From: a virus
Virus genome (UHGV): UHGV-1794847
Length of the DNA: 21,029 bases
Direction: 5' to 3' (one strand)
This document shows, piece after piece, positions 2,136 to 20,579 of this stretch (the first letter of the stretch is position 1; the number at the start of each line of letters is the position of its first letter). The translations under genes and the position numbers were made by a program. Below the pieces are notes generated by a model, which had not been told where the DNA came from, made no database searches, and saw only the letters and a list, made by a program, of their open reading frames with translations.

Positions 2136-3428
2136 CTACAACAATGACGGCACTCGTTGAGTTTCAAGTGGGTCACTGACATTGATGCCTGTGTATGCAA
2201 CAAGTCGTTGTATTGGGCCAAGCACGAGTTTTTCGAACATGAGTCGCTTATTCATTGGTGGCACATCTGGCATGTACTTAGGCGTTGGCATTTCACCTGG
2301 CGCAAAGCCAAATGCATCGCAATATTGACGAGAACCAATTGGGATATTTGACAAATCTGACTTTGCTCTATCGACGAAATAGTAGAACACTCTACCGCCT
2401 TCAATCAATGTATATCGTGTTTCCAATCCATGAGCTTTTACAAGTGCGTTATGGTATGCACAAGCCCTGTACTGAGGCAGTACGCCTTTTGCTAACTGCC
2501 ATTCGCCATCATAGCTTAGCACATAGTCATGATACTTGTTTGCATTGACATATGCACAAAGTTTCTCCAAGTCTTGCTCGGCTTCAAAGCGTTTCCATAA
2601 TTTCTGTATGAGCTTTGGATATGTCGCAGAAGTCAATTCACCTCTGAACATTTTCTTGAATGCATAATCAAGCATTTGCCTAACAAGCATTGATGAGCCT
2701 GTTTGAATAAGTTCGATGCCTTTGCCTTGAATGTGCTCAGTAGGGTCTTCGAATACTCGACCATCTACATATATTTGAGCCTTTAAGTACTTTTTCTTTT
2801 GGGCAAATAATGCAGTGTCAGAAATCGTTTCGAGGTCAAATAGCAAAATTGAATTGCCATGACGTTTTGCGAGGTCTGCTGCATATGCCCCATTGAATAA
2901 TTCTTCCATACGATATTTGAATATCGCAAGAATCAAGTCATACCAATTTTTGCCTATGTAGCCAATTGATTTGACAGTTGGCTCAAAGTGAATGTACAAA
3001 GAGTCTGTGTCAATATACAACACTTTGTCTTCATAGGGTTCTTGCTTTGGCGACACAGACAAATCAAAATTGCCCTTCAATTGTGGGTCATTACGCAGCT
3101 TTTCATGCAATTCATAATCACACCACCACTTATTGTTAAGATAGTCATTTGCTACTCGTTCACCAAAGTGAATGAAGTTGCGGCCTTCAGCAGTAATTGA
3201 TTCTGCAACAGCCATATTAAAGAAGTGATAGAAACGATTGCTTGTAGCGCCATATATTGAGTTTCGACAACATTTTGCTGAGACTTGTAGTCCTGCATGC
3301 TTTAGTGATTCTTGCATTGCAAAATCTCTCAATTCAAATAGACGTTCAGTAGACAACTGACTCAAATCACCAGTCAAATCTACTCCATCTATTTCAATTT
3401 TTGACATATCTATCTGAGCTTCTGCCAT
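2136..3428 (-). CDS. Family-B DNA polymerase, C-terminal part (motif B, motif C, thumb)
   Basis: Motif B KCCRNSIYG verified at 3249..3275 (K-x3-NS-x-YG) and motif C YIDTDS at 3000..3017 (YGDTDS-type). Stop TAG at 2136..2138. Start set to ATG at 3426..3428; the track's 3518 start is a TTG codon, and an alternative ATG exists at 3459..3461. Confidence 0.85.
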   Translation of the reverse strand: MAEAQIDMSKIEIDGVDLTGDLSQLSTERLFELRDFAMQESLKHAGLQVSAKCCRNSIYGATSNRFYHFFNMAVAESITAEGRNFIHFGERVANDYLNNKWWCDYELHEKLRNDPQLKGNFDLSVSPKQEPYEDKVLYIDTDSLYIHFEPTVKSIGYIGKNWYDLILAIFKYRMEELFNGAYAADLAKRHGNSILLFDLETISDTALFAQKKKYLKAQIYVDGRVFEDPTEHIQGKGIELIQTGSSMLVRQMLDYAFKKMFRGELTSATYPKLIQKLWKRFEAEQDLEKLCAYVNANKYHDYVLSYDGEWQLAKGVLPQYRACAYHNALVKAHGLETRYTLIEGGRVFYYFVDRAKSDLSNIPIGSRQYCDAFGFAPGEMPTPKYMPDVPPMNKRLMFEKLVLGPIQRLVAYTGINVSDPLETQRVPSLL

Positions 3429-3448
3429 AAGTTGTTTATTTTTGATTT

Positions 3449-3459
3449 TATTGTACAAC
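3449..3459 (-). promoter_or_regulatory. Conserved GTTGTACAATA element (sense strand), 20 nt upstream of the polymerase C-part ATG
   Basis: Plus-strand tattgtacaac at 3449..3459; identical 11-mer also at 8225..8235 and 10317..10327, each upstream of a minus-strand start. Contains a TACAAT -10-like hexamer and the palindrome TTGTACAA. Confidence 0.35.
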
Positions 3460-3496
3460 ATGCAAAACGAGTTTGCACTGTTTTGATACAACGACA

Positions 3497-4459
3497 CTAA
3501 ACTTTTACATGACCACAATCAAACACAGGATAAAATTGCCGTTGTAGCATAGTATTTGTGTCAAAATTGCCATCAATAAGATGTTCGTGTGTGCGCCAAT
3601 TATGCCAATGTTTTTGAATTGTCTGCAAGTTATCTGATTTTTGTGGATTCAATGCAAAGTCTGTTGATAGCACAGGTTCATTGTTCAAATGCGCTTGTAT
3701 TGCTGCAATAACTGCTTCAACAGACATCCACTCAAATGCAGTCACACAAATAAAACCTGCACGCAATGCATCTTGAGTTTTGTAAAAGTGATATGTTGGA
3801 TGAGTTGCTGCGCATTTTGATGCATTTTTGACAAGTGCATCAAAGCTTTTTGCGCTGTTATGCGACACTGTTGGATTGATTTCTACTACGACATTGTCAT
3901 ATCGCAAATCATACAACTTTAAGCCTATTCTGTAGTCATATTCAAAATTTATGCCAAGACGTTCAAATAGCAATGCATGCCAACGTTCATTAAGTTTTGA
4001 CTGTATTTGACCAGATGCTGCTCTGCATTTTGCATGCATGCAAAAATACGGCACATCATATCGCTCTTCACATGTTTGACGCAACTTAGCAATGTTTGCA
4101 GGCCCAAGCTTGCCAAAATGCTTAAGCTTAGTTGCATTTGCTTTGTCAGTATTGCTTGGACCTGCTTTGCCAAAATGTTCAAGCTTTGTCGCATTCGCTT
4201 TGTCAGTATTGCCTGGTCCAAGCTTGCCAAAATGTTTAAGCTTAGTCTGCTTGCATTGCTCTGTTACATATGATAACTGCATATTGTGTTCTACACCATA
4301 TTTTCGCAACATTGCAATTCGCCTGATGTATTTTCTACGAATTTTGCTGTGCGACGTCTTTCTTGGTGCGTATCTAACATATGGTGTATTTGCAATCAAC
4401 TCATCTCGCTCGTTTTCAAGTTTAGCAATACGAGCATCAATCTCTTCTTTTGTCATCAT
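3497..4459 (-). CDS. Repeat-containing putative DNA-binding / homing-endonuclease-like protein, class unassigned
   Basis: ATG at 4457..4459. Three tandem 19-aa repeats (TKLKHFGKLGPGNTDKANA) encoded by a 57-bp DNA repeat; basic N-terminus. Sits between the two polymerase halves, where freestanding endonucleases typically reside. No GIY-YIG or HNH motif recognised; the motif LYDLRYDNVVVEINPTVSH is only loosely nuclease-like. Confidence 0.55.
   Translation of the reverse strand: MMTKEEIDARIAKLENERDELIANTPYVRYAPRKTSHSKIRRKYIRRIAMLRKYGVEHNMQLSYVTEQCKQTKLKHFGKLGPGNTDKANATKLEHFGKAGPSNTDKANATKLKHFGKLGPANIAKLRQTCEERYDVPYFCMHAKCRAASGQIQSKLNERWHALLFERLGINFEYDYRIGLKLYDLRYDNVVVEINPTVSHNSAKSFDALVKNASKCAATHPTYHFYKTQDALRAGFICVTAFEWMSVEAVIAAIQAHLNNEPVLSTDFALNPQKSDNLQTIQKHWHNWRTHEHLIDGNFDTNTMLQRQFYPVFDCGHVKV
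4101..4260 (-). repeat. 57-bp in-frame tandem repeat, about 2.8 copies, inside CDS 3497..4459
   Basis: Units starting near 4108, 4165 and 4222 (gcttgccaaaatgcttaagcttagttgcatttgctttgtcagtattgc and variants); period 57 = 19 codons. Confidence 0.8.
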
Positions 4460-6695: not shown

Positions 6696-8201
6696 TTACA
6701 ATTTGATTGCACCTCTACGAGCAAGCTCTTCTTCAATCAATCTAACATGATTGTTAGCATACCAAAATTGCAATTTTTTGTGATAATTGCGAATGTCGCC
6801 AAGCTGTTCTTGAGTTTCTTTATACATTGAAGGCTCTCTATTGTCATACAGACAATTATTGACAGACACAAAGTAATTTGGGTCTGCTTTGTAATGCTCG
6901 ATTTCATCAGGATTTGTCAAACGTCTAATAAAGTTGTCTGGTGAAATATTCGCCGAGCGCATACTTGACGGATACAACGAGTTTGCATCAACACAGACAA
7001 CCATACGAGCCCAATGGTTAAATGGCTGCTTAACAAAGCCGCCCTCAAATGAATGTACAACATTCTCCGGACCGCCTTGAGCGCATACAACTTTACCGCC
7101 ATATTTGTTGTACAAATATGTCATCATGACGCCCTCAGATTGCTTAACTGGTCCTTGACAGTGATTCATGTCAATATTTGTCATATTTGACAATGACATT
7201 ACATTTGATATCAAGTCAGTTTTTGCAGCAATCATCGCATTGACCATCGTATCGACAGCATTATATGCAATGAACGTGCATGGATGATACAAATACAGCT
7301 CTTTAAGTGTGCAATCATAGGGCAGCTTACCTACGCCAAACATACGATGTGCAATATAGTCAAGTCGCAATGACTCTTTTTGCCACACTGAATAGTCGTA
7401 TGTGTCCATGAGTTGCATGTAGTCATCAATGTACTTGTGATATGGCATGCCATTGCCCCAGACAGTTCTGCCAACTGGAGATGCCAATGCTAAATCAATA
7501 TTGTGCATTGCGCATCGATTTTTGATATAGATGCTATCGAAGCCATTGATGTTCCAACCTGTCAATGCAGGAATGTTTTTGAAGAGCTTAGTCACCCAAA
7601 AATGCAACAATTCATGCTCATTTGCATGTTGAAAGATTTTGACAGTCGGACGCTCTTTCAAATATGCAGCAAAGCAATGCTGACCCATGTACTCTTGAAT
7701 GATGTTATTGACAAACTCAAATGCATCGTCCAGTGTTGGGTTTTGTTTGCCACAGCTTTTGCGCAAATCATCGTCATTCAACAAGTCAACAGTTGTCTGA
7801 ATGACACAATTACATTGCTCATCACATGTACTTATTGCATTAATGGGCATTTCAGCTTTGTCAGGCTTTGGAAAGCCATTGCCAATTTCAGTCTCAATAT
7901 CGTAAAAGTACAACTTTGGTCTACGATAAGCAAACAATTCAGCTTTGTCAGCTTCAGGCAATTCAAATAAGAATTGCAGTAAGTCAAATTGATTGAATCG
8001 CTTTGCTGTAACTCGAGTTACTGGCAATTTGCGCCAATCTTGAATATCTGCATATTGCGGCTCTACATGGTCTGATATTTGCCATACTGGAAATTGATAT
8101 GGCTGTTCACAGACAGGATATGTTTTAATATCAATGCCACCTTGCTCATTAACGTATGAAACTTCAATGCCATGTGACAAATATGCTACATCGACAATCA
8201 T
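6696..8201 (-). CDS. Family-B DNA polymerase, N-terminal part (3'-5' exonuclease domain plus motif A)
   Basis: Exo I FYDIETE (about 7893..7901), Exo II-like WNINGFD, Exo III-like YNAVD, and motif A DANSLYPS verified at 6966..6989. Ends with TAA at 6696..6698 about 100 aa after motif A, before any motif B. Start set to ATG 8199..8201; the track's 8237 start is TTG. Confidence 0.9.
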   Translation of the reverse strand: MIVDVAYLSHGIEVSYVNEQGGIDIKTYPVCEQPYQFPVWQISDHVEPQYADIQDWRKLPVTRVTAKRFNQFDLLQFLFELPEADKAELFAYRRPKLYFYDIETEIGNGFPKPDKAEMPINAISTCDEQCNCVIQTTVDLLNDDDLRKSCGKQNPTLDDAFEFVNNIIQEYMGQHCFAAYLKERPTVKIFQHANEHELLHFWVTKLFKNIPALTGWNINGFDSIYIKNRCAMHNIDLALASPVGRTVWGNGMPYHKYIDDYMQLMDTYDYSVWQKESLRLDYIAHRMFGVGKLPYDCTLKELYLYHPCTFIAYNAVDTMVNAMIAAKTDLISNVMSLSNMTNIDMNHCQGPVKQSEGVMMTYLYNKYGGKVVCAQGGPENVVHSFEGGFVKQPFNHWARMVVCVDANSLYPSSMRSANISPDNFIRRLTNPDEIEHYKADPNYFVSVNNCLYDNREPSMYKETQEQLGDIRNYHKKLQFWYANNHVRLIEEELARRGAIKL

Positions 8202-8212
8202 ATTATTATCTT

Positions 8213-8623
8213 TTAGAATAGAGATATTGTACAACAATTTGATTCAGGTTGCCATTCTACAATATGCGCATCAAAGTGTTTGTTAAGCCAATGTGCAAGT
8301 ATGTGTCTATGACAAAATGCAGATGGTCTGCACCAGCATAACAGTACAATGTCTCGTTCACCAGCAAGAAGCTTTATGCGATGCAGCATCAAACTTATCT
8401 GTGACAATGCAGCGTCAAGTTTTGCAGTGTATTGCTCTGCATATTGTGCATTGTCAAGCAAGCCTACTTTATGCAAACGAACAAGTGACATGTAATCAGG
8501 CATGACGTCAGTCCATGTAAAATCTGCTATGAAGCCCTTAGGTTTTGTTGCAGATACTTGAACAAGAAATGCGTTATCAGGCAGATGCCTGCATGCATAA
8601 TATGAAGTCAAGATTCTTGTCAT
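8213..8623 (-). CDS. DUF488-like protein
   Basis: ATG at 8621..8623, overlapping the upstream stop as ATGA. C-terminal RDIVLLCWCRPSAFCHRHILAHWL resembles the conserved LLC..E....CHR.l.a..L block of DUF488 (YeaO-like) proteins, recalled from memory. Confidence 0.5.
   Translation of the reverse strand: MTRILTSYYACRHLPDNAFLVQVSATKPKGFIADFTWTDVMPDYMSLVRLHKVGLLDNAQYAEQYTAKLDAALSQISLMLHRIKLLAGERDIVLLCWCRPSAFCHRHILAHWLNKHFDAHIVEWQPESNCCTISLF
8225..8235 (-). promoter_or_regulatory. Conserved GTTGTACAATA element, 23 nt upstream of the polymerase N-part ATG
   Basis: Plus tattgtacaac at 8225..8235; same 11-mer as at 3449..3459 and 10317..10327. Confidence 0.35.
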
Positions 8624-11898: not shown

Positions 11899-12129
11899 TT
11901 ATTCGAAATCCGTGTCGTCTACATTTTCATTAGGGTCATAGATGAGCCATACAAATGCTGCACAGCCAAGTATGAATAAGCCTCCGCCAATGATTGTCGT
12001 AAAAACCGAACCAATCCAATGCTTCATAATATCACCGAGCGGATTCAATGTTTCATAGCCAATCATAAATGCAACAAATACAACTATTATTGCTGCTATT
12101 GCTTTGTTTGTTGTGTTTCGTTTTATCAT
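11899..12129 (-). CDS. Small membrane protein, two predicted TM helices, acidic C-terminus
   Basis: The track start 12210 is GTG; first ATG at 12127..12129 gives MIKRNTTNKAIAAIIVVFVAFMIGY...IGGGLFILGCAAFVWLIYDPNENVDDTDFE. Confidence 0.5.
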   Translation of the reverse strand: MIKRNTTNKAIAAIIVVFVAFMIGYETLNPLGDIMKHWIGSVFTTIIGGGLFILGCAAFVWLIYDPNENVDDTDFE

Positions 12130-12252
12130 TATTGTAGAGGTTTTAGTGTTCTGTATATTATGTTCGAATATATGAGGACATATATTATATATAGATATAT
12201 TACAACACACAAATCATTTTTGCACACTTTTATAAACCAAAATTTCACAAAA

Positions 12253-12622: not shown

Positions 12623-15600
12623 CTATCGAACAATCGATGTAATTGATGCTACTGGTATCGTACCAATGATTGATGTAGTTGAGCGGAAGTCTGCATAGAC
12701 TTTAATGTCAAATGTGAACTCCTTGCCACCAATGTAGCATATGAAATTCATTGTTTTTGTGTATGACAACTTGTTTTGTTGAGTATTGCTGTCAATGTCA
12801 GATGAACCAACTGCATCAGTCATACGAGCCTGGAACAACAATGGTATCAGCAATGCATTGTTTTCACCAGGCTTAACTACATAAGCTGCAGAATCAGTAC
12901 TATTCGAAACTTGCATTTGATTGACTGTTGTCGGATTCAACAGCAAGAATGCGCCACGACTATTTGCGCCGACTGCATAGACGTCGTTGTCTGTGAATGC
13001 GCATTTAGGCGCGTTTTCTGCAGTAAGTTCAAGTGGCAGAATCTGCTGATACTTTGACTTAATAACTGAATTGAACTTAGCAAGCTCTGCAAATGCAGCA
13101 GTCAAAGCAGCTTTTGTTTGTTCATTCTTGTTTGCTGAGTATGCAATCCATGCTGGATGCTGAACAGACATCAGATTATATGCGTCTGGTGATACTGTCG
13201 ACTTCAATGCAATCGCTTCATAATCATCGTCATTCTTATGAACAAATTTGCGATTTGCTGCTTGTGCAGAAGTGTCAATGTTTTGTGTTTCTACAGTAGA
13301 CGATGATGGTGTTTCTGCAGCAACATACAGCTTTTCTGTGCCTGCTACGTTTTTCAAACCAGCATACAATGTTTGACCCATGTATTGACGAGTGCCATAC
13401 GGTGCTAAGATGTCATTGCTGTCATATGCATCGCTGTTAAGCACTACAGGCACGTCATAGACATCTGCAAAATCTTGTAGTTTGTCTGTAATATGCTGTG
13501 ATAAGTCGCCATGATATCGTGGATACAATGAGATGTTTTCTGCACCAATATTGTAGAACTTCAGCCAATATTGTCGAGTAAGCACTTTGCCATAGTTGTC
13601 TGCTGAAGTAATGTCAAACTTATCTGCATAAGTGCCAGCAAACAAAACATTGCTCGAGCCATTCAGAATTTCTGTTTGATTGCCCTCGTCATCTACGATT
13701 GCAACTCGAAGCATTGAACCTTGATTCAGAATGATGTCTTTGAGCTGCGCAACTTCATTGCTAAGTGACAGCAGTTTTTCATATGTTGTCACTTTTGCAA
13801 GTTCTGATGTGAAGAAGCCTGATGCAATGTTTTGAGCATTGTGAGCATAGTAGATGTTGTTTTCTGAGAATGCATCTGCAATATGCTTGATAAGTCCTTT
13901 GTTCTCAAGCATATTTTCAAGAGCCACATTTTGCTTATCAATTGCAAGTTCATCTTTAAGTGTGACGAACATTGCAGAAGCTGCAAGACTTTCTGGGAAC
14001 TGAATGCTTACGATGTTTGACCACTCAGACTCATTGAGCACGTTTGGATAGCCTGCTTCACCAATTGCTTTGACACGGAACTGAACAATCTCATTAGCAG
14101 AAATTGGAATTTCAAGCTGATTGCATGAGATTGCATCAATGGATTCTGAATTGATTGGTTCCCATTGAATGCTACCATCGACAATGATTTTGCGACGAAG
14201 TGGCGTAAATACTTCATTCCATGTGCTAAATGCTGCTGTCGTAATTGTGCCTGCTGCGTTTTCGATGTCAAATGTGTCTGCCTTTGCTACTGTGCCATTC
14301 AATGACGCATATCTGTACTGCACCTTGAACTGCACAATGTTTTGTGCAGCAGTAAATCTACTGATTGCGGGGTCTTGTACTGGCAAGAAGCCTCGAACTC
14401 TAAACTTCGGATTATATAATGCGTCATATGCAGCGCCATTGATATTCAGCATCTCATCAATGATATTTGTGAGTGTTTGCAGTCGTTCTGCTCTTTGCTG
14501 AGTCAACGTAACATATTGCGTAGATGCTTTTTGACGTTCAACGTCATTCTTGAAATTATTTGTATTGAGCTTTGACATCACAGATGCGATATCAGAGTCA
14601 AGTACCGACATTTCTTGCTGAACTGCTCGTTTTTGATTGTACAATGACAAAATTCGAGATTTGTCAGTGTTGTCAATCAAATGTGTGTTAAGCTGAATAA
14701 CTTTGAATGATTCTGCAGACAATTGCAAACGATTTGGCTTAATTGCATATTGCGATGGCGCAAGCATATCAGTAGTCAATGCTGCAATATAAGCGCCAAT
14801 TGATGCGTCGCCATGTGACAACATATACGAGTTTGCATTGACAAGCTCATTTGTTGCAGTACGAATTGTAAGTGTTGCAGTGTCAATCAAAACTGCTGGG
14901 CTGTACTGAGCTACTGTGTTATATGCATCATGCACAGGCGACAAGAACAACACGAATTTTTCAGAATGTCGAAGTGGTACTTCAACGACTTTTCGAACAA
15001 TGGGCTCTACAAAGACGAGGTCAGTGACTTCTACATTCAATGCATTCAAGCCTGCAGTACGCTGCAGTATACATGTTTGCGACAGTTTGTCAATCGAAAC
15101 AATTTGCAGTAATACTGAACCAGTCGGGTCTGATAATGTGTCACCGACTTTCAATGTCAGTGAACCGGCAACCTTTGCGTCAATTGCATCATATACAATG
15201 CTGTCAAGTTTGACAGCAATTGTGCCATTGTTCGCATTTTGCTTCTTGAGAATTTTGAAGCTGCCACTTGATGCTGCTCGTCGTGGTCGCAAATTAACTG
15301 TGAAGTCTTCAAGAGTATAGTCATCATCAGTATGCCAGCCATGCGCATCAATTTCAGCAAGCAATGCAGCATGGCTCATTTCAATGTCTGTTTGTGCCAC
15401 AATTTGCTGCAATGCAGCAAACATGGCATCTGAGCATATGTACTTTGTAACTTGACATTGTTTAAGATATGATGATGCTTGACCAGTCACATCAATTTGC
15501 ACATGCATACCAAGCGCTGTTGTGCGTTCAAACATATCATTGCCAAGTGCGACAACATTGTTATCTTCTGCTATCGTGCCCTGCAAAGTCTTCAATGTCT

Positions 15601-15928
15601 CAGGCTGATTCAGCAAGCTCATATGCACCATTGTACGCATATTGTTGTTTGCATCTACAAGTTGTGCATACAACTGCTCACCATTATTTAAGCCTGTCAA
15701 GACTTTCATATTTTGCTCAATGACAGCCATGCGACGTTGAATTGACGCAAAGCTTGGCACAGTAATGCTTGTTGTGCTTCTATCATCATTTGTCAATGTT
15801 ATTGTGACTGTATCTTCTGATGATGACACTGCAGCTTGCAACACATCAAGATATTGCAGACTGTTATTGTACAGTTGCTTGATGTCTGCCAGCAATTGTT
15901 GCATTGCATTTGTTGAAACTTCTGACAT
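12623..15928 (-). CDS. Large hypothetical protein (about 1101 aa), probable virion structural protein
   Basis: The track start 15976 is TTG; first ATG at 15926..15928 (MSEVSTNAMQQLL). Beta-rich S/T/N/V composition with a central predicted coiled-coil segment (SRILSLYNQKRAVQQEMSVLDSDIASVMSKL...); no ATPase or enzymatic motif seen. Confidence 0.8.
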   Translation of the reverse strand: MSEVSTNAMQQLLADIKQLYNNSLQYLDVLQAAVSSSEDTVTITLTNDDRSTTSITVPSFASIQRRMAVIEQNMKVLTGLNNGEQLYAQLVDANNNMRTMVHMSLLNQPETLKTLQGTIAEDNNVVALGNDMFERTTALGMHVQIDVTGQASSYLKQCQVTKYICSDAMFAALQQIVAQTDIEMSHAALLAEIDAHGWHTDDDYTLEDFTVNLRPRRAASSGSFKILKKQNANNGTIAVKLDSIVYDAIDAKVAGSLTLKVGDTLSDPTGSVLLQIVSIDKLSQTCILQRTAGLNALNVEVTDLVFVEPIVRKVVEVPLRHSEKFVLFLSPVHDAYNTVAQYSPAVLIDTATLTIRTATNELVNANSYMLSHGDASIGAYIAALTTDMLAPSQYAIKPNRLQLSAESFKVIQLNTHLIDNTDKSRILSLYNQKRAVQQEMSVLDSDIASVMSKLNTNNFKNDVERQKASTQYVTLTQQRAERLQTLTNIIDEMLNINGAAYDALYNPKFRVRGFLPVQDPAISRFTAAQNIVQFKVQYRYASLNGTVAKADTFDIENAAGTITTAAFSTWNEVFTPLRRKIIVDGSIQWEPINSESIDAISCNQLEIPISANEIVQFRVKAIGEAGYPNVLNESEWSNIVSIQFPESLAASAMFVTLKDELAIDKQNVALENMLENKGLIKHIADAFSENNIYYAHNAQNIASGFFTSELAKVTTYEKLLSLSNEVAQLKDIILNQGSMLRVAIVDDEGNQTEILNGSSNVLFAGTYADKFDITSADNYGKVLTRQYWLKFYNIGAENISLYPRYHGDLSQHITDKLQDFADVYDVPVVLNSDAYDSNDILAPYGTRQYMGQTLYAGLKNVAGTEKLYVAAETPSSSTVETQNIDTSAQAANRKFVHKNDDDYEAIALKSTVSPDAYNLMSVQHPAWIAYSANKNEQTKAALTAAFAELAKFNSVIKSKYQQILPLELTAENAPKCAFTDNDVYAVGANSRGAFLLLNPTTVNQMQVSNSTDSAAYVVKPGENNALLIPLLFQARMTDAVGSSDIDSNTQQNKLSYTKTMNFICYIGGKEFTFDIKVYADFRSTTSIIGTIPVASITSIVR

Positions 15929-15953
15929 ATGCTTAAATGTAATTTGTTCTTGT

Positions 15954-16005
15954 TTTTGATGCAAGATGCAAAACAATTAAAATTGTTTTGATGCAAAATG
16001 CAAAA
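15954..16005 (-). repeat. Two 20-bp direct repeats TTTTGATGCAA(G/A)ATGCAAAA, 32 bp apart, upstream of the large gene
   Basis: Copies at 15954..15973 and 15986..16005 with one mismatch; sense-strand reading TTTTGCAT(C/T)TTGCATCAAAA, 26 to 77 nt upstream of ATG 15928. Confidence 0.6.
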
Positions 16006-16030
16006 ATCTGTTAGATTTTTGATATGTACA

Positions 16031-16067
16031 AACAAAAAGACTGCTGCAAATTATTGCAGCAGTCTTT
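16031..16067 (-). terminator. Intrinsic terminator downstream of gene 16086..16979
   Basis: Perfect 12-bp stem agactgctgcaa (16038..16049) / ttgcagcagtct (16054..16065), 4-nt loop, plus-strand A-run 16034..16037 giving a T-run after the hairpin on the minus strand. Confidence 0.7.
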
Positions 16068-16085
16068 AATAATTGCTTGTTTATG

Positions 16086-16979
16086 CTATGTCAATGCAAT
16101 GAAGACATCACCAGACTGTTCAGCTTCAAGCTCTTTTTCGACTTGTTGTTGCATTGTTTGACCTTTTGATGCAAGTCTATCAAAGTTAATGCGAACATTG
16201 CCAGGCAACTTGAAGTCATATGTGCCAATGATATCTGCAAGTTCTTGCATGCATTGACCTGTGCAGTATCTCAAGAAACGTCTGTCTTCATACAATGACT
16301 GCAGTGGCACTCTTACCCAACACATCAACACCAAATCAGACCCTTCATTATCACCAAGAATGTTCAGCTTATGACTAAATCTGTTGAAGTTATATGTGAT
16401 TGTTCGTTGTAGAATGCTTTCATATGTGCCAATTTCATACATTGTCACCCACAAGTCATCTGCAATTGATGCATTTTGAGAACCTGCAGGTCCAGCGTAG
16501 TTAAATGACACACCATTTGCCTCACTGTAGAAATTGATTGAATTGCTAAGCAGTCGTTCAAGATAGAAATTTGCACGCCGCATTGACAGTTTATGCTGCG
16601 ATTCAAGTAGCTGAACATCTGATACAGCCCAGATTTGTGGCGGCAATTTGACAATTTTGTTTGCGCCATCAGTCATGTCAATATCGCGAACAACAAACCA
16701 GCGCTCTTCAAGAGCAGACTCAGAATGTTCAAAAAACCATTCTGCACAAGTCTCAATGATTTGTGGCATACGAGTCTTCGGAATTGCAAATGGCAATGCA
16801 CAGCCTCGTGTGACTTCTTGTACAAGTCGCTCAATAAATCGCAAGTCTACGCTGTAGTCATATCGAGAATTGATATTTTCGACTTCAGGCTTATTGCACT
16901 CATTTGTTGTTGCGCCTTCGACTTTCCAAGAAGTTGCGCCGTCATTGATTGGTGGTGCTGGTTTACGTTGAACTTTCAT
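16086..16979 (-). CDS. Hypothetical protein (297 aa)
   Basis: ATG at 16977..16979 (MKVQRKPAPP); stop at 16086 followed by a terminator. Confidence 0.75.
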   Translation of the reverse strand: MKVQRKPAPPINDGATSWKVEGATTNECNKPEVENINSRYDYSVDLRFIERLVQEVTRGCALPFAIPKTRMPQIIETCAEWFFEHSESALEERWFVVRDIDMTDGANKIVKLPPQIWAVSDVQLLESQHKLSMRRANFYLERLLSNSINFYSEANGVSFNYAGPAGSQNASIADDLWVTMYEIGTYESILQRTITYNFNRFSHKLNILGDNEGSDLVLMCWVRVPLQSLYEDRRFLRYCTGQCMQELADIIGTYDFKLPGNVRINFDRLASKGQTMQQQVEKELEAEQSGDVFIALT

Positions 16980-17003
16980 GCTTGATAACGTTGAACTTTC
17001 ATG
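16965..17003 (-). repeat. 16-bp direct repeat acgttgaactttcatg duplicating the start region of gene 16086..16979
   Basis: Copies at 16965..16980 and 16988..17003; the upstream copy creates a second ATG (17000..17002) opening an 8-codon ORF MKVQRYQA whose TGA (16976..16978) overlaps the main ATG. Confidence 0.7.
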
Positions 17004-17188
17004 TGTCTTGTATATGGTCTACGGTGTGTGAAACACTCTACGGTATGATGTTGAAATTGACTGCAAGCAACAATGATGTGACATCTTCGCCCAATAGAAA
17101 TGAACCTGTAGCAAAACCAACGGCATCAAGTTGATTTGTAAACGTGCTCAGCGGCAATGTCAGTATGATGTAGCCTAACTTAACAGAG

Positions 17189-17198
17189 CCCCCCCCCC
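17189..17198. repeat. Homopolymeric C10 tract (G10 on minus strand) in the 287-bp intergenic region
   Basis: cccccccccc at 17189..17198 within otherwise AT-rich non-coding sequence 16980..17266. Confidence 0.8.
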
Positions 17199-17266
17199 GT
17201 GTTTTGCGAGCGATAGTGGTCTTGAGTTACATGTGACATATATGAAATGTTTGTTTGAATATGTAT

Positions 17267-17878
17267 TTATGGTGTAACAATCGGTCCGCCACCAGGCAAA
17301 CTTGAACATGTTTGCATGTATGTATACAACAAATTTCCTGCGTTTTGCATAATGTTTGCGAACATCAATGCAATGCCGCGCAAATCAGCTTCGCCTTCAA
17401 ATGTGTTGATAAATGCTTGCTGAGCGCATGCAAACATTACTGGCACAGTAGATGCACTTGTCATTGCTATCACAGGTCCGCCAGGCGACAAGGGCAACAC
17501 CGGTGGCGATGCTGGCACAGTTAAGTTTGTTGGAATCCATGCTGCAACTGCTGCAGCATAAGGCTTAAAGCCATTGCCAAACTTTATTGCAATGTTCTTT
17601 GGGTCTGATTCACCTTGAAAAGTTTCTATAAGTGCTTGTCTACCTGCTTCAAATAGAGATTGCTCAAGTGTAGCAGTTGGACCTGCAGTTATTGGACCGC
17701 CGACAGGCAAACCTGTGCAAGTTGCAATGTAGCTTGCTACACCCGTAGCAAACAATTGACTGAATTTGTTGGCAAACTTTGTCGCAATTTGCGGTCTATC
17801 AAGCTCACCTTGAAAAGTTGCAGTGTATGCTTGATATGCAATGGGCTGCACAGCAGCTTGCAATGTAGCGCCTGGCAT
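17267..17878 (-). CDS. Triple-repeat protein (three ~65-aa repeats)
   Basis: ATG at 17876..17878. Repeats share TF(Q/E)GE.D....IA.KF.N ... LP.GGPI; the DNA shows three degenerate ~200-bp tandem repeats. Confidence 0.7.
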   Translation of the reverse strand: MPGATLQAAVQPIAYQAYTATFQGELDRPQIATKFANKFSQLFATGVASYIATCTGLPVGGPITAGPTATLEQSLFEAGRQALIETFQGESDPKNIAIKFGNGFKPYAAAVAAWIPTNLTVPASPPVLPLSPGGPVIAMTSASTVPVMFACAQQAFINTFEGEADLRGIALMFANIMQNAGNLLYTYMQTCSSLPGGGPIVTP

Positions 17879-17879
17879 G

Positions 17880-18161
17880 TCAGATTAGCAATTGAGCAGC
17901 AACTGCACCAAGTGCAGCAGACATGAATGATTGCGCAATATATGACAAACTCCAGCAGCGTTCTACTACATAGAGTTTTGACAAGCCACATGCAATGATA
18001 TCAAGTGCGACTGCACACAATGTAACTACAAATAAATGTGTACGCTGTGGAATCTCTACTATGTCATATGTTACAAGTGTTGTTACAAATGCAATAAAAC
18101 TAACCATAACGCAATGCAACATTGCAGTCATTAAGCGTTCAATGAAATGTTGACTGTTCAT
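17880..18161 (-). CDS. Small hydrophobic membrane protein (93 aa)
   Basis: ATG at 18159..18161; stop TGA at 17880..17882, one nt from the next ATG; predominantly hydrophobic with about 3 predicted TM segments. Confidence 0.55.
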   Translation of the reverse strand: MNSQHFIERLMTAMLHCVMVSFIAFVTTLVTYDIVEIPQRTHLFVVTLCAVALDIIACGLSKLYVVERCWSLSYIAQSFMSAALGAVAAQLLI

Positions 18162-18163
18162 AT

Positions 18164-19042
18164 TTAGTCTTGGCCTTTATCAATTGTGGCAATTTTTGAC
18201 AGAGTTTCAGGCAAAAAGTCTGAGTCTTTCTTATGCGTGTTATTTGATGGCTGCTGCACTTTTGCAGGATACGTGCCAAATACAGGTGCAAGTGGGCTTG
18301 TGTATGGGTTGCCTTGAGCTGTCGTCTGGAGCTGCTTCATAACTTCTGCAAGATTATCTACAACTTCTTTCACATAGTCAAGAACATTTTGATGCGCAGT
18401 TTTGTTGTCATCTCCAACTACGCAAGGCTGTTCTGATTTATCTGTGCTACCAAAGCTCAAGTGACCATCAGCAGTCATATGAATGACGCCATTTTTATCA
18501 GCGTCAGTAGTCATATGAATTGATTTATCCTTACGCAAATTGATGTCTGTGCCATTGTAGTGAATATGCCATCCTTGCTCTGGTGTCCACCATATGCCAA
18601 ACTTGCCCTCAGCACCATATCGTTCAGCATCATCATAGACTACAATCTTTGCTTTGGCGTTTTCATCACCAATGACGTCTTTTGCGATATCTGAACGAGA
18701 ATCAAGATGCAGCCAAGTCATATTGTAGACGCCTCGACTCAAATCAAGCATGACCCAATCGCCAACAATTGGCGCATCATACATGTTCATCATGCTGCTA
18801 TCTGCATAGCACCATGGCAGCTTGTCTGTAGCAATTTCATTGTCAGCAAATCGAGTAAAGCCATCAATTTGACAGCGGATACGACATTGTAACATGTCAT
18901 CATCAACATCAACAACTTCACCAATGAGCTTAACAGGCATACCCTCTGTCAAAGACCCAATTGATGATGCAGTTATTGATGCATTGTATGCTGATATCTT
19001 TTCAAACAGCTCTTCTTGAGTAACAAGCAACATATCAGACAT
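18164..19042 (-). CDS. Hypothetical protein (292 aa), possibly virion-associated
   Basis: ATG at 19040..19042 overlapping the upstream TAA (TAATG). Contains duplicated SIHMTTDAD / VIHMTADGH segments; function not recognised. Confidence 0.7.
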   Translation of the reverse strand: MSDMLLVTQEELFEKISAYNASITASSIGSLTEGMPVKLIGEVVDVDDDMLQCRIRCQIDGFTRFADNEIATDKLPWCYADSSMMNMYDAPIVGDWVMLDLSRGVYNMTWLHLDSRSDIAKDVIGDENAKAKIVVYDDAERYGAEGKFGIWWTPEQGWHIHYNGTDINLRKDKSIHMTTDADKNGVIHMTADGHLSFGSTDKSEQPCVVGDDNKTAHQNVLDYVKEVVDNLAEVMKQLQTTAQGNPYTSPLAPVFGTYPAKVQQPSNNTHKKDSDFLPETLSKIATIDKGQD

Positions 19043-20472
19043 TACATTGAATCTTCATACACGTTGATGCGACCAAGCTTTGGCAGTTTTTCTTGGTCTG
19101 GTTCATACACAGGATTTGCAAGTGCTTTCTGTGATAAGCTGTCATCATATTTTGCTACTGCAGACCCTTTGAGCAATTGCTTTGCTCTTGAATATGCAAA
19201 CTGTGGATTTGTCAATGCTGCAATTTCAACAGCATTCAAGCCATAGACATTGCCAACAGTCTTGCCAACAAGTATTCGACTTGCTTGCATATTGATTTCA
19301 GCCAACGCATTTGCTGCAGTAGACAAAGCAAATTCTTTTGCATATTCAAGTGCTTCTTTAGCAGCTTTGTTAACTGCATCTTTAAGCAATTGTTTGACAG
19401 ACTGGCCTTTCATTGTCGACACAACTTGCTGCGTAATCTTGCCATACTTGCTATCTTTTGCAAGCTTGACAAATTGCTGGCCATAAGTCTCTTTCTTTTT
19501 CTCAACTGTTTCTGACGTATCAGTGTCACTAAGAAGTTTTTGAGACTGCACTACAAGGCCTTTGTGACTATCTTTCATTGCTGCAAATGCAGATGAAATT
19601 GACAATGTGCCATATGACACTTTGATGTTGTTTGTCGCCATTGTAGGCTCAGCAGTGTTGTCTATATCTTGCACAAAGTTTGCGCCAGAATCAGGCATAA
19701 ACGCGCATTGACCAAAGTTGAAAAGCACATACTGTCCAGCATTGATTACGACTGCAATGTCATCAGGTCTTGCCATTTGAGTTGATGATAACACGCCTTC
19801 TATTCGTGCTTGCTGAATTGCTTTGATGTCTTCGCCGTAGTTTGCAACTTCTGTTCTCGTATCACCAAAACTGTGCTCAGACATACCAAGCATTTGCTCA
19901 ACTTCATTGTCAAGCTTGAGTGACTTATCATCTGCAAGTTCTTCTTGGAATATGCGAACTTCTGTTACATACACAAACATGTTGAAGCGTTGCAAGTTCA
20001 GTGGTAGCACATAGACCATGCGGTCGTAGTCATATAACACTTGCTTGAGCAGCGTGTTAATTGTTGCAAATCGCCAGTCAATGCTTTCTGTCACAGTAAG
20101 CCCAACGGTTTTGTCATTCAAAATGACTTCTTTCATTGTTCGCTTATATGCATCAGCAAGTCCTTGAATGCCTGTAAAGCAATGAAATGCAGAGTCCTGA
20201 ATTGCTTGCAGCATCTTTATGACAATTTCAAGCTGTGCATATCGTGTTTCATCGCCAATTCGCTTCAAATATGCCAATGCGCTGTTCTTAAACTTAGCAT
20301 CTGCAAGTAAACCCATTTCAGAGTCAAAGTTAAAGAACACTCTGAATGTCAAATATGTTGGGTCTTGATATGCATTGCACAACACACCATTTATGACCTC
20401 TGGGTCAAGTGACATGAACTGGTATACACCATTGAACATGTCTATGCGTGAAGTTGCGTGATTTGATGGCAT
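19042..20472 (-). CDS. Hypothetical protein (476 aa), possibly virion-associated
   Basis: ATG at 20470..20472, first gene after terminator 20529..20561; no Walker A or other catalytic motif seen. Confidence 0.75.
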   Translation of the reverse strand: MPSNHATSRIDMFNGVYQFMSLDPEVINGVLCNAYQDPTYLTFRVFFNFDSEMGLLADAKFKNSALAYLKRIGDETRYAQLEIVIKMLQAIQDSAFHCFTGIQGLADAYKRTMKEVILNDKTVGLTVTESIDWRFATINTLLKQVLYDYDRMVYVLPLNLQRFNMFVYVTEVRIFQEELADDKSLKLDNEVEQMLGMSEHSFGDTRTEVANYGEDIKAIQQARIEGVLSSTQMARPDDIAVVINAGQYVLFNFGQCAFMPDSGANFVQDIDNTAEPTMATNNIKVSYGTLSISSAFAAMKDSHKGLVVQSQKLLSDTDTSETVEKKKETYGQQFVKLAKDSKYGKITQQVVSTMKGQSVKQLLKDAVNKAAKEALEYAKEFALSTAANALAEINMQASRILVGKTVGNVYGLNAVEIAALTNPQFAYSRAKQLLKGSAVAKYDDSLSQKALANPVYEPDQEKLPKLGRINVYEDSM

Positions 20473-20528
20473 ATTGTGTATAGTTTGCTTTCTTAATTTT
20501 TGGATATATACACATGCTCAAACTGCAC

Positions 20529-20561
20529 AAAAAAACTTCGCATCAATAACTTGATGCGAAG
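20529..20561 (-). terminator. Intrinsic terminator downstream of the partial gene 20580..21029
   Basis: Perfect 11-bp stem cttcgcatcaa (20536..20546) / ttgatgcgaag (20551..20561), loop taac, plus-strand A7 run 20529..20535 giving a T-run after the hairpin on the minus strand. Confidence 0.7.
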
Positions 20562-20579
20562 TGTACTCAATGTAATATG

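What the first reader, a model, noticed from the sequence alone, without database searches (positions are those of the whole stretch)
17267..18161. Translationally coupled pair: small membrane protein followed by a triple-repeat protein
A hydrophobic 93-aa protein (17880..18161) is followed 1 nt later by a 203-aa protein built from three degenerate ~65-aa repeats (TFQGE.D...IA.KF.N...LP.GGPI), encoded by three ~200-bp tandem DNA repeats. I do not recognise the repeat as LysM, PG_binding or another named module. A membrane protein followed by a repeat protein could be a lysis or cell-envelope module, or a structural accessory; neither is established.
Basis: partly seen in the sequence, partly recalled or inferred. 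Interest (0 to 1): 0.5.

Follow-up and report, generated by a model that had tools for sequence, protein, structure and literature searches.

The report
Fused pseudo-trimer protein beside phage spike
A jumbo-phage tail operon encodes, just after its membrane-piercing spike gene, a previously undescribed 203-aa protein made of three fused copies of a small helical module that related phages carry as a single 94-aa gene; the small membrane protein in front of it is a fast-evolving, clade-specific insert, not an obligate partner.

Summary
Two minus-strand ORFs lie 1 nt apart: A (17880..18161, 93 aa, three hydrophobic segments) and B (17267..17878, 203 aa, three ~65-aa repeats, 29-40% identical, E 1e-10 to 1e-12). 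The repeat is ancient and visible only in protein; TRF finds no DNA repeat.

The window comes from an uncultured PAU/PTm1/MA9V-like jumbo myovirus. Two strong terminators bracket one late operon: 476-aa protein, gp5-like spike, A, B, gene remnant, gp13-like neck protein.

The 80-94-aa proteins PTm1 gp233, PAU gp262 and MA9V2_180 align to one repeat (hhalign 93.6%, controls below 9%). In 7 of 11 lineages the gene follows the spike gene directly or after one inserted ORF.

Best reading: B is a single-chain pseudo-trimer of the central spike complex. This is inferred and rests on no proteomics or complex model. A occurs only in close relatives, evolves about 20 times faster than the spike, and sits in an insertion hot spot. 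A lysis module is unsupported.

The parts
20535..20562 (-). Intrinsic-terminator-like hairpin (12-bp stem plus T run) that closes the upstream unit. It marks the 5' boundary of the operon holding the finding.
19042..20472 (-). 476-aa conserved protein encoded immediately upstream of the spike gene (its stop overlaps the spike start). Homologues precede the spike gene in PTm1 and MA9V and lie nearby in PAU. Calling it a hub (gp27-like) partner is inference only.
   Evidence: no Pfam or PHROG match
18164..19042 (-). 292-aa central spike / baseplate protein with a gp5/VgrG-type OB domain at about residues 40-104.
   Evidence: phrog_37871 'baseplate protein' E 1.6e-29; Phage_base_V E 0.009, below the Pfam cut-off. 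It is 27-30% identical to the annotated baseplate proteins of PTm1, pT24, PAU and MA9V. Relatives carry a precomputed weak Phage_base_V hit.
17880..18161 (-). Protein A: 93-aa small membrane protein with three hydrophobic segments. It is clade-specific and fast-evolving.
17267..17878 (-). Protein B: 203-aa triple-repeat protein (stop codon at 17267..17269). Predicted to be a single-chain pseudo-trimer of three helix-loop-helix-beta-hairpin units.
17687..17878 (-). Repeat 1 of B (aa 1-64).
17468..17686 (-). Repeat 2 of B (aa 65-137). It carries a Pro-rich insertion before its SPGGP motif.
17270..17467 (-). Repeat 3 of B (aa 138-203).
16980..17266 (-). Remnant of a variable cassette gene. An ATG at 17239 opens 'MSHVTQDHYRSQN', followed by a G10 run (17189..17198) and a frameshift. 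The C-terminal 'VGFATGSF' matches the end of the 169-aa gene found at this position in L007.
16086..16979 (-). 297-aa T4 gp13-like neck protein, the last gene of the operon.
   Evidence: phrog_211 head-tail adaptor E 2.7e-9; PF26809 Phage_T4_gp13 on the orthologues in L007, L010 and L012
16036..16067 (-). Strong terminator-like hairpin (14-bp stem plus T run) that ends the operon.

Best explanation
B is a virion protein of the central spike complex of a PAU/PTm1-like jumbo myovirus that infects Bacteroidota. It is a covalently fused pseudo-trimer: three copies of a ~65-aa module (helix A, a conserved 'TF.GE.D..IA' loop, helix B, and an 'LP.GGPI' beta-hairpin) fold into one six-helix barrel or bundle with pseudo-threefold symmetry.

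Related cultured phages carry the same module as a single 80-94-aa gene (PTm1 gp233, PAU gp262, MA9V2_180), which would have to homotrimerise to make the same object. A three-fold object encoded next to the trimeric gp5-like spike most plausibly sits on the tail axis, bound to the spike trimer as a cap, plug or collar. Fusing three subunits into one chain allows the three units to diverge (repeat 2 has a Pro-rich insert) and allows a single N- or C-terminal extension per spike, as seen in some members. PAAR proteins exploit the same logic with an unrelated all-beta fold.

A is a lineage-specific, rapidly evolving three-segment membrane protein inserted at the spike|B junction, a hot spot for accessory ORFs. 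It is co-transcribed late and probably translated by termination-reinitiation, but it is not an obligate partner of B.

Shown: the genes, the repeats, family conservation, the operon boundaries, the confident monomer model, similarity to the single-copy proteins, and synteny with the spike gene. Inferred: presence in the virion, position on the axis, contact with the spike, trimerisation of the single-copy form, and any role of A.
For: Repeats and their conservation:
- The repeats are real.
- They are orthologous by position across 24 family members: the nearest neighbour of r1 is another r1 in 22 cases, r2 in 23 and r3 in 22. The triplication therefore predates the family.

Structure:
- The AF2 model built on the 24-sequence alignment has pLDDT 92.5 and pTM 0.87, and all five models score 90.6 or higher. 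It shows three helix-loop-helix-hairpin units.

Single-copy relatives:
- Among 1617 ORFs of all fetched loci, the repeat HMM's best non-family hits are PTm1 gp233 (E 3e-4) and PAU gp262 (E 7e-4). Reciprocally, the single-copy HMM's best non-family hits are B homologues (E 2e-4, 6e-4).
- hhalign gives probability 93.6%, E 2e-7 over 62 columns covering the whole unit including the P.GGP motif. The reversed control gives 8.6% and 30 column shuffles give at most 4.8%.

Synteny:
- The spike gene is immediately upstream in L001/L006/L023, L018 and PTm1.
- One inserted ORF lies between them in the window clade, L007, L016 and L019.

Operon:
- Terminators lie at 20562..20535 and 16067..16036.

Protein A:
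- Homologues are found only at 73-97% identity.
- Between the window and L010, dN is 0.145 for A against 0.007 for the spike and 0.028 for B.
Against: - No virion proteomics, cryo-EM map or complex prediction places B or the single-copy proteins in a particle.
- Synteny is not universal. In L004/L005 the B homologue follows the major capsid protein gene. In L015/L017 it follows a T4 gp2-like gene. In PAU and MA9V-2 the single-copy gene lies 2-7 genes from the spike.
- The link to the single-copy proteins rests on 16-17-bit HMM scores and one profile-profile alignment.
- The single-copy proteins are ordinary hydrophilic proteins (GRAVY -0.3), whereas the B family is unusually hydrophobic and low in charge (core GRAVY mostly +0.06 to +0.60, 7-16% charged residues). 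The two forms may therefore not be functionally equivalent.
- The C-terminal third of the spike looks helical or extended rather than a blunt beta-helix, so a PAAR-style docking site is not evident.
Confidence: 0.45

Rival explanations
1. A and B (and the unrelated membrane proteins found upstream of B elsewhere) act together as a membrane-active or ejection module. B would be a hydrophobic six-helix barrel carried in or on the tail tip. After contraction it would insert into, or dock onto, the host envelope to help form the DNA conduit. A would be its membrane partner or a kin-directed exclusion protein. This is the nearest version of the first reader's 'cell-envelope module'.
For: - The B family is unusually hydrophobic and low in charge for a non-transmembrane protein: core GRAVY up to +0.60 and 7-16% charged residues.
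- Three mutually non-homologous membrane proteins lie directly upstream of B genes: A, the ~96-aa ORF in L007 and the 213-aa ORF in L017.
- A and B are 1 nt apart and co-transcribed.
Against: - No helix of B reaches transmembrane-like hydrophobicity: mean KD is 0.88 or lower and the maximum 19-residue window is 1.4.
- The single-copy relatives are hydrophilic.
- At least five lineages have no membrane ORF at the junction.
Confidence: 0.17
2. B is a capsid decoration or cement protein that occupies icosahedral or quasi three-fold positions as a pseudo-trimer. The single-copy form would do so as a true trimer, analogous in role to lambda gpD or T4 Soc.
For: - In L004/L005 the B homologue (53% identical) lies 100 nt downstream of the major capsid protein gene, which is itself preceded by an acidic scaffold-like gene.
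- In L015/L017 it follows a homologue of T4 gp2, a head-associated protein.
- A three-fold object fits capsid three-fold sites as well as it fits the tail axis.
Against: - In 7 of 11 lineages the gene is next to the spike gene, not a head gene.
- There is no sequence or fold similarity to any known decoration protein.
- Members with long single N- or C-terminal extensions are easier to fit on one copy per tail than on hundreds per capsid. This last point is inference.
Confidence: 0.12
3. B is a non-virion morphogenetic factor, such as a chaperone or template for folding or trimerising the spike or another trimeric tail protein, and is absent from the finished particle.
For: - It lies inside a late structural operon next to a trimeric protein gene.
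- Many phage chaperone genes immediately follow their client gene (general knowledge).
Against: - Strong purifying selection (dN/dS 0.08-0.23) and a rigid, confidently predicted globular fold are compatible with this reading but do not point to it.
- A fused pseudo-trimer with divergent repeats and cargo-like extensions (P0014, P0015, P0021, P0023) is not typical of assembly chaperones.
Confidence: 0.1
4. A is a holin-like lysis protein and B is a lysis accessory.
For: A is small, has three hydrophobic segments as class I holins do, and is expressed from a late operon.
Against: - No endolysin, spanin or peptidoglycan-binding domain occurs in this operon or in any ORF of the window that was scanned.
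- A ends in '...AAQLLI' with no charged C-terminal tail.
- A is absent from most phages that have B.
- B has no match to any lysis family.
Confidence: 0.04

Closest known systems
PTm1 gp233 (YP_009873917), PAU gp262 (YP_007006869) and MA9V2_180: 80-94-aa hypothetical proteins of cultured Bacteroidota jumbo phages
   Same: They align to one whole repeat unit of B: helix A, loop, helix B with the 'FA..F......I.DY' pattern, and then 'APNGPV' or 'APSGGGPV' against 'LP.GGPI'. hhalign gives 93.6%, and the two families are reciprocal best non-family HMM hits. The gene lies in the same structural region, and in PTm1 it starts 2 nt after the spike gene.
   Different: They carry one copy rather than three, are hydrophilic (24-31% charged residues against 9%), have a longer loop between the helices, and lack the conserved Cys at the end of helix B. 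They are themselves uncharacterised and belong to no PHROG or Pfam family.
PAAR-repeat spike-tip proteins (Pfam PF05488; T4 gp5.4, VCA0105)
   Same: Both are a single polypeptide with three internal pseudo-repeats, encoded just downstream of a gp5/VgrG-type trimeric spike gene. Some members of each carry one N- or C-terminal extension. The resemblance concerns genetic position and symmetry logic.
   Different: No PAAR_motif match in any of the 24 members. B is predicted alpha-helical where PAAR is an all-beta cone. It is twice the size. Binding to the spike tip has not been shown. B is not a PAAR family member.
Mitochondrial carrier family (SLC25; 8bqs_DS, UCP1)
   Different: Sequence identity is 6%, there is no Mito_carr Pfam hit, and the helices are shorter and less hydrophobic. 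B has beta-hairpins in place of matrix helices, and the biological setting is a phage. The resemblance is geometric only.
Class I holins and small phage membrane proteins such as T4 Imm (compared with protein A)
   Same: Size (~90 aa), two to three transmembrane-like segments, and a phage origin.
   Different: No sequence match to any library: Imm58 at E 0.015 is below the cut-off and is judged a chance hit. A has no charged C-terminal tail and no adjacent lysin, and it is confined to one phage clade.

Membership tests
PAAR repeat proteins (PF05488 / DUF4150) | Sequence match to the PAAR_motif profile | tested here: not met
   hmmscan of the window protein and of all 24 family members against Pfam at E <= 0.1 gives no PAAR hit.
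PAAR repeat proteins (PF05488 / DUF4150) | All-beta conical fold built from three pseudo-repeats | tested here: not met
PAAR repeat proteins (PF05488 / DUF4150) | Binds the distal end of the trimeric spike beta-helix, one copy per spike | not testable with these tools
   This needs a complex model or a map.
PTm1 gp233 / PAU gp262 single-copy family | Profile-level similarity over the whole unit, above controls | tested here: met
   hhalign 93.6%, E 2e-7 over 62 columns. The reversed control gives 8.6% and 30 column shuffles give at most 4.8%. The families are reciprocal best non-family hits among 1617 ORFs. The HMM scores themselves are modest (16-17 bits).
PTm1 gp233 / PAU gp262 single-copy family | Same genomic module (spike to neck region) | tested here: met
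   PTm1: 2 nt after the spike gene. PAU: three genes after the spike and directly before the gene at the gp13-like neck position. MA9V-2: between the spike and neck genes.
Mitochondrial carrier family | Mito_carr profile match and six hydrophobic transmembrane helices | tested here: not met
WD40 repeat proteins | WD40 profile match and a beta-propeller fold | tested here: not met
   The B profile hits fungal NACHT-WD40 proteins at E 1e-12 to 1e-4, but only through the short 'SPDG..IASGS' motif summed over 5-12 repeats. B has no WD40 Pfam hit and is predicted helical.
LysM / PG_binding cell-wall-binding modules | Profile match to the domain | tested here: not met
   No Pfam or NCBIfam hit.
Holins (protein A) | Small protein with at least one transmembrane segment | tested here: met
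   Three hydrophobic segments, KD19 maxima 2.0-2.3.
Holins (protein A) | Highly charged C-terminal tail and a gene adjacent to an endolysin or spanin gene | tested here: not met
   The C-terminus is '...GAVAAQLLI'. The neighbours are the spike gene and B, and no lysin was found among the scanned ORFs of the window.
gp5/VgrG-type central spike (upstream gene, for context) | N-terminal OB-fold (Phage_base_V) and a baseplate PHROG match | tested here: inconclusive
   phrog_37871 'baseplate protein' at E 1.6e-29 is solid. Phage_base_V scores only 16.7 bits against a cut-off of 23.8. Relatives carry a weak precomputed Phage_base_V hit.
Capsid decoration proteins (gpD / Soc type) | Sequence or fold similarity, and a gene in the head module | tested here: inconclusive
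   No sequence or fold similarity. The gene is adjacent to the major capsid protein gene in one lineage only (L004/L005).

The most novel reading that the evidence does not exclude
Bacteroidota jumbo phages of the PAU/PTm1/Lak-related group cap or plug their trimeric central spike with an alpha-helical six-helix barrel unrelated to PAAR. The barrel exists in two evolutionary states: a homotrimer of a 94-aa protein, and a gene-fused single-chain pseudo-trimer. The fusion breaks the three-fold symmetry, so that one chain can carry a single extension or cargo, and the hydrophobic barrel may act on the host membrane. This would be a second, independent solution to the trimer-to-monomer transition at the tip of a contractile injection machine.
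Probability: 0.22. Interest if true: 0.7.

Novelty: new variant of a known kind. Interest (0 to 1): 0.45.

Why it matters
Contractile-tail phages, pyocins and type VI secretion systems all face the same problem of finishing a trimeric spike with something that can be asymmetric. PAAR is the only well-described answer. This finding offers a confidently modelled protein family with no Pfam, PHROG or PDB relative, genetically tied to the spike of a poorly studied group of jumbo phages, some of whose relatives include the Lak megaphages.

The family also shows a clean natural example of a homo-oligomer turned into a single-chain pseudo-oligomer by gene triplication, because both states survive in related phages. 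That makes the idea directly testable in cultured phages (PTm1, PAU, MA9V-1/2).

The study also identifies the spike|B junction, and the slot downstream of B, as hot spots where accessory genes are swapped. Such sites are useful when looking for exclusion or host-range determinants. If B proves to be an ordinary minor structural protein, the result is still a new annotation for a family of hypothetical proteins.

Tried and rejected
- **Known phage DNA or protein.** Megablast of 16000..20500 and tblastn of B against 50,697 phage records found no match.
- **Named domains in B.** Pfam, PHROGs and NCBIfam on B and on all 24 family members gave nothing. A PDB profile search returned only a 'PGGG' match to a tau repeat construct (E 0.002, about 7 bits per repeat) and noise, and was rejected.
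- **WD40 relationship.** The large NACHT-WD40 hits in the 1.84-billion-protein search are a short-motif artefact accumulated over many repeats.
- **Single-sequence AF2.** pLDDT was 48.5 and the model was unusable. It was superseded by the alignment-based model.
- **Fold searches.** Foldseek against BFVD (viral) and against PDB gave no hit at E <= 0.001. The afdb50 library was not available.
- **Homology of A to the hydrophobic ORF in the same slot of L007.** BLASTP E 0.22 and a global-alignment z of about 2 against shuffles. Not demonstrable, so the ORF is treated as a positional analogue.
- **Wider locus sampling.** IMG/VR and the JGI metagenome scan yielded only 2 and 3 loci, so the synteny survey rests on 11 lineages.
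- **Literature.** No virion proteomics for PAU, PTm1 or MA9V small proteins was found in the held library. The MA9V-1 paper has SDS-PAGE only. Papers on the A-1(L) and Milano baseplates describe no comparable protein.
Full report
**1. What is in the sequence**

All genes in this part of the window are on the minus strand. The two ORFs of the finding are present exactly as described: A at 17880..18161 (93 aa) and B at 17267..17878 (203 aa). The upstream gene ends with TAA at 18164..18166, two bases before the ATG of A. A ends with TGA at 17880..17882, and one base (C) separates it from the ATG of B.

A has two strongly hydrophobic segments (about 13-31 and 43-61, Kyte-Doolittle 19-residue means 2.0-2.3) and a weaker third (73-93).

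B divides into three units: aa 1-64, 65-137 and 138-203. They match each other at 29-40% identity, with BLASTP E-values of 1.5e-12, 6.8e-12 and 8.5e-10.

The repeat is a protein-level feature. Tandem Repeats Finder reports nothing in the gene. Codon-aligned nucleotide identity is 48-50%, and third positions are close to random. 'Three ~200-bp tandem DNA repeats' is therefore correct only as the shadow of an old triplication.

**2. Context: phage type and operon**

The window has no near-identical relative among 50,697 deposited phage genomes, but its proteins place it clearly.

- The gene upstream of A (18164..19042, 292 aa) matches PHROG 37871 'baseplate protein' (E 1.6e-29). It has a weak gp5/VgrG-type OB-domain hit (Phage_base_V, E 0.009).
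- That protein is 27-30% identical to the annotated baseplate proteins of the jumbo myoviruses Tenacibaculum PTm1/PTm5/pT24, 'Sphingomonas' PAU and Chryseobacterium MA9V-1/2.
- The 1117-aa protein (12623..15976) and the 476-aa protein (19042..20472) have homologues in the same phages. The 1117-aa protein also matches Lak megaphage records.
- The gene downstream of B (16086..16979) is a T4 gp13-like neck protein: phrog_211 here, and PF26809 on its orthologues.
- The rest of the window carries a split family-B DNA polymerase, a MazG-like gene and a dUTPase-like gene.
- According to a reference cited in PMC10537231 (White and Suttle 2013), PAU's host is in fact a Sphingobacterium. The whole group therefore infects Bacteroidota.

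Two strong intrinsic-terminator-like hairpins on the minus strand, at 20562..20535 and 16067..16036, bracket one unit. The unit reads: 476-aa protein, spike, A, B, a gene remnant, neck protein. A and B are thus part of a late structural operon. The 1-2-nt spacers make termination-reinitiation plausible, but that is inference.

**3. Protein B: family, structure and relatives**

*Family size.* The word-indexed search of 5.8 billion proteins found five clusters at 39-98% identity, all 202-203 aa. An exhaustive HMMER profile search of 1.84 billion representatives found about 20 full-length members at E below 1e-29. Most are about 200 aa. Some carry a C-terminal Ala/Lys/Glu-rich extension (P0014, 378 aa; P0015, 283 aa) or an N-terminal extension (P0019, P0021, P0023).

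*Spurious hits.* The same search listed fungal NACHT-WD40 proteins at E 1e-12 to 1e-4. They match only a ~40-residue stretch ('SPDG..IASGS...TF.GH') repeated 5-12 times. I judge these spurious, because B is predicted helical and has no WD40 hit.

*Conservation.* In the 24-sequence alignment the three-unit architecture is conserved. The invariant residues are M1, F35, G60, G61, F100, F173, G197 and G198. Each repeat's nearest neighbour in other proteins is the repeat at the same position (22, 23 and 22 cases against 3 exceptions). The triplication therefore predates the family. B is under purifying selection, with dN/dS of 0.08-0.23.

*No named family.* No Pfam, PHROG, NCBIfam or PDB-sequence match exists for any member.

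*Structure prediction.* Single-sequence AlphaFold failed (pLDDT 48.5). With the 24-sequence alignment the model is confident: pLDDT 92.5, pTM 0.87, and all five models at 90.6 or higher. Each unit is helix A, a roughly 10-residue loop carrying the conserved TF.GE.D..IA motif, helix B, and then a short beta-hairpin formed by LP.GGPI.

*Fold comparison.*
- The other hits are up-down membrane helical bundles, and no phage protein appears.
- Foldseek against PDB and BFVD gives nothing significant. Its top PDB entry is a designed single-chain six-helix barrel.
- I read this as a six-helix pseudo-C3 barrel or bundle with no known homologous structure. I could not inspect coordinates, so the symmetry is inferred.

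*Single-copy relatives.* In PTm1 the spike gene (gp234) is followed 2 nt later by gp233 (94 aa). PAU has a homologous 94-aa gp262, and MA9V-2 has an 80-aa MA9V2_180. These proteins look like one unit of B.
- Among 1617 ORFs of all fetched loci, the repeat HMM's best non-family hits are gp233 (E 3e-4) and gp262 (E 7e-4).
- The single-copy HMM's best non-family hits are B homologues (E 2e-4 and 6e-4).
- Profile-profile alignment (5 against 70 sequences) gives probability 93.6% and E 2e-7 over 62 columns spanning the whole unit, including AP(N/SGG)GPV against LP.GGPI.
- A reversed query gives 8.6%, and 30 column-shuffled queries give at most 4.8%.
- The most economical reading is that the module works as a three-fold object: a homotrimer in PTm1, PAU and MA9V, and a fused single chain in the window's family.

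*Synteny across 11 lineages.*
- The spike gene is directly upstream of the B-family or single-copy gene in L001/L002/L003/L006/L023, L018 and PTm1.
- One inserted ORF separates them in the window clade (A), in L007 (an unrelated hydrophobic ORF), in L016 (a 42-aa acidic ORF) and in L019 (a 322-aa ORF, with a spike C-terminal fragment upstream).
- Exceptions: L004/L005, where the gene follows the major capsid protein gene (identified by tblastn to the annotated capsid genes of MA9V-2, PTm1 and MaF61).
- Exceptions: L015/L017, where it follows a T4 gp2-like gene.
- Exceptions: PAU and MA9V-2, where the single-copy gene lies a few genes from the spike, nearer the neck gene.

**4. Protein A**

Homologues of A exist only at 73-97% identity (14 clusters). 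In L010, L012, L020 and L021 the order spike-A-B and the 1-nt spacer are conserved. A is a real gene, with dN/dS of 0.23-0.39, but it evolves far faster than its neighbours. Between the window and L010, dN is 0.145 for A, 0.028 for B and 0.007 for the spike. A is 74% identical, against 96% for B and 98% for the spike.

In L007, where B is 72% and the spike 78% identical, the slot holds a ~96-aa protein with three hydrophobic segments. It has no demonstrable similarity to A (BLASTP E 0.22; global z about 2). More distant lineages have nothing there.

A matches no library. Imm58 at E 0.015 and a VNFD hit are noise. It lacks a charged C-terminal tail, and the operon contains no lysin.

I conclude that A is a clade-specific accessory membrane protein occupying an insertion hot spot. 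Its function is open. Candidates include kin-directed exclusion, a membrane partner of the ejection machinery, or a holin-like role.

**5. Mechanism proposed, and its limits**

*Best-supported reading (confidence about 0.45).* B is a single-chain pseudo-trimer belonging to the central spike complex, sitting on the tail's three-fold axis in contact with the gp5-like trimer. Fusing three subunits lets the units diverge (repeat 2 has a Pro-rich insert) and lets one chain carry a single extension, as in P0014, P0015, P0021 and P0023. This matches the PAAR proteins in genetic position and symmetry logic only. Membership in PAAR was tested and not met, in either sequence or fold.

*What is shown and what is inferred.* Shown: the genes, the repeats, conservation, the operon, the monomer model, the single-copy relatives and the synteny. 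Inferred: presence in the virion, axial position, spike contact and trimerisation of the 94-aa form.

*Points against.*
- There are no proteomics data and no complex model.
- Three lineages break the synteny.
- The similarity scores to the single-copy proteins are modest.
- The B family is hydrophobic and low in charge (core GRAVY mostly +0.06 to +0.60, 7-16% charged residues), whereas gp233 and gp262 are hydrophilic.
- The spike's C-terminal third does not look like a blunt beta-helix.

*Rivals.*
- A capsid three-fold decoration protein (0.12). Support: the L004 and L015/L017 contexts.
- A non-virion assembly chaperone (0.10).
- A lysis module (0.04).

**6. Novelty and verdict**

The family is undescribed. 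It has no Pfam, PHROG or NCBIfam family and no solved or predicted viral structure resembling it. It shows both the single-copy and the fused-triplicate states in related phages. Its role is not established.

I rate it a new variant of a known kind: a phage spike-module structural accessory with pseudo-threefold design. Interest is 0.45. The most novel reading not excluded is an alpha-helical, PAAR-independent spike cap in two evolutionary states (probability about 0.22, interest 0.7 if true). The decisive tests (complex prediction, virion mass spectrometry and cryo-EM of PTm1, PAU or MA9V) are straightforward because cultured relatives exist.

Noticed in passing
window 16980..17266 (minus strand); compare L007 3230..3739, L010 11001..12058, L012 6937..7992, and L020 and L022: Between B and the neck gene lies the remnant of a cassette gene. 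An ATG at 17239 opens 'MSHVTQDHYRSQN', then comes a G10 homopolymer (17189..17198), a frameshift, and a C-terminal 'VGFATGSF' that matches the end of L007's 169-aa gene. Relatives carry one or two intact 150-194-aa genes here. They share the N-terminal motif MS[HR]VTQ[DE]HYR[SA]QNA but have unrelated bodies, so this is a hypervariable slot. The G10 run could also be an assembly or sequencing artefact.
   Followed up: partly
Junction between the spike gene and the B gene: window 17879..18163; L007 2227..2581; L016 1039..1167; L019 170..1138: The junction is an insertion hot spot. It holds A in the window clade, an unrelated hydrophobic ORF in L007, a 42-aa acidic ORF in L016 and a 322-aa ORF in L019. 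It is empty in L001, L006, L018, L023 and PTm1.
   Followed up: yes
L017 6194..6835: A 213-aa multi-pass membrane protein lies directly upstream of a distant B homologue (33% identical), in a lineage where the spike gene is not adjacent. This is the third unrelated membrane protein found in front of a B-family gene. Whether the pattern is chance or a functional link is unresolved.
   Followed up: partly
B family alignment A2, positions 54, 118 and 191 of the window protein: A 'T-C' pair at the end of helix B recurs at the pseudo-symmetry-equivalent position of each repeat. Cys is present in 23/24 members in repeat 1, 10/24 in repeat 2 and 16/24 in repeat 3. The window protein has Cys in repeats 1 and 3 only. 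A metal site or disulfide near the hairpins is possible but was not tested.
   Followed up: no
window 2136..3518, 3497..4459 and 6696..8237 (minus strand): The family-B DNA polymerase is split into two ORFs (513 aa and 460 aa) several kb apart. Between them lie a homing-endonuclease-like ORF (weak hit, E 9e-4), MazG-like and dUTPase-like genes, and others. PTm1 is likewise annotated with an intein-containing split DNA polymerase.
   Followed up: no
window 4104..4247: A 57-bp tandem repeat (2.5 copies, 83% matches, TRF score 216) lies inside the homing-endonuclease-like ORF 3497..4459.
   Followed up: no
window 11899..12210 (minus strand): Another small hydrophobic ORF (103 aa) gives a sub-threshold EII-Sor hit, which reflects its hydrophobic composition. 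It is a second small membrane protein in the structural region.
   Followed up: no
Profile search hits P0026-P0044: The B profile picks up fungal NACHT-WD40 proteins at E down to 1e-12. The match is to the recurring 'SPDG..IASGS......TF.GH' stretch, which resembles 'SPGGPVIAMTSAS....TFEGE' of B. I judge it a short-motif coincidence amplified by 5-12 repeats.
   Followed up: partly
A-family variants P0056 against P0048 and P0060 (alignment A3): P0056 has the N-terminal half of the L010-type variant and the C-terminal half of the window-type variant. This suggests recombination within the A gene among co-circulating phages.
   Followed up: no
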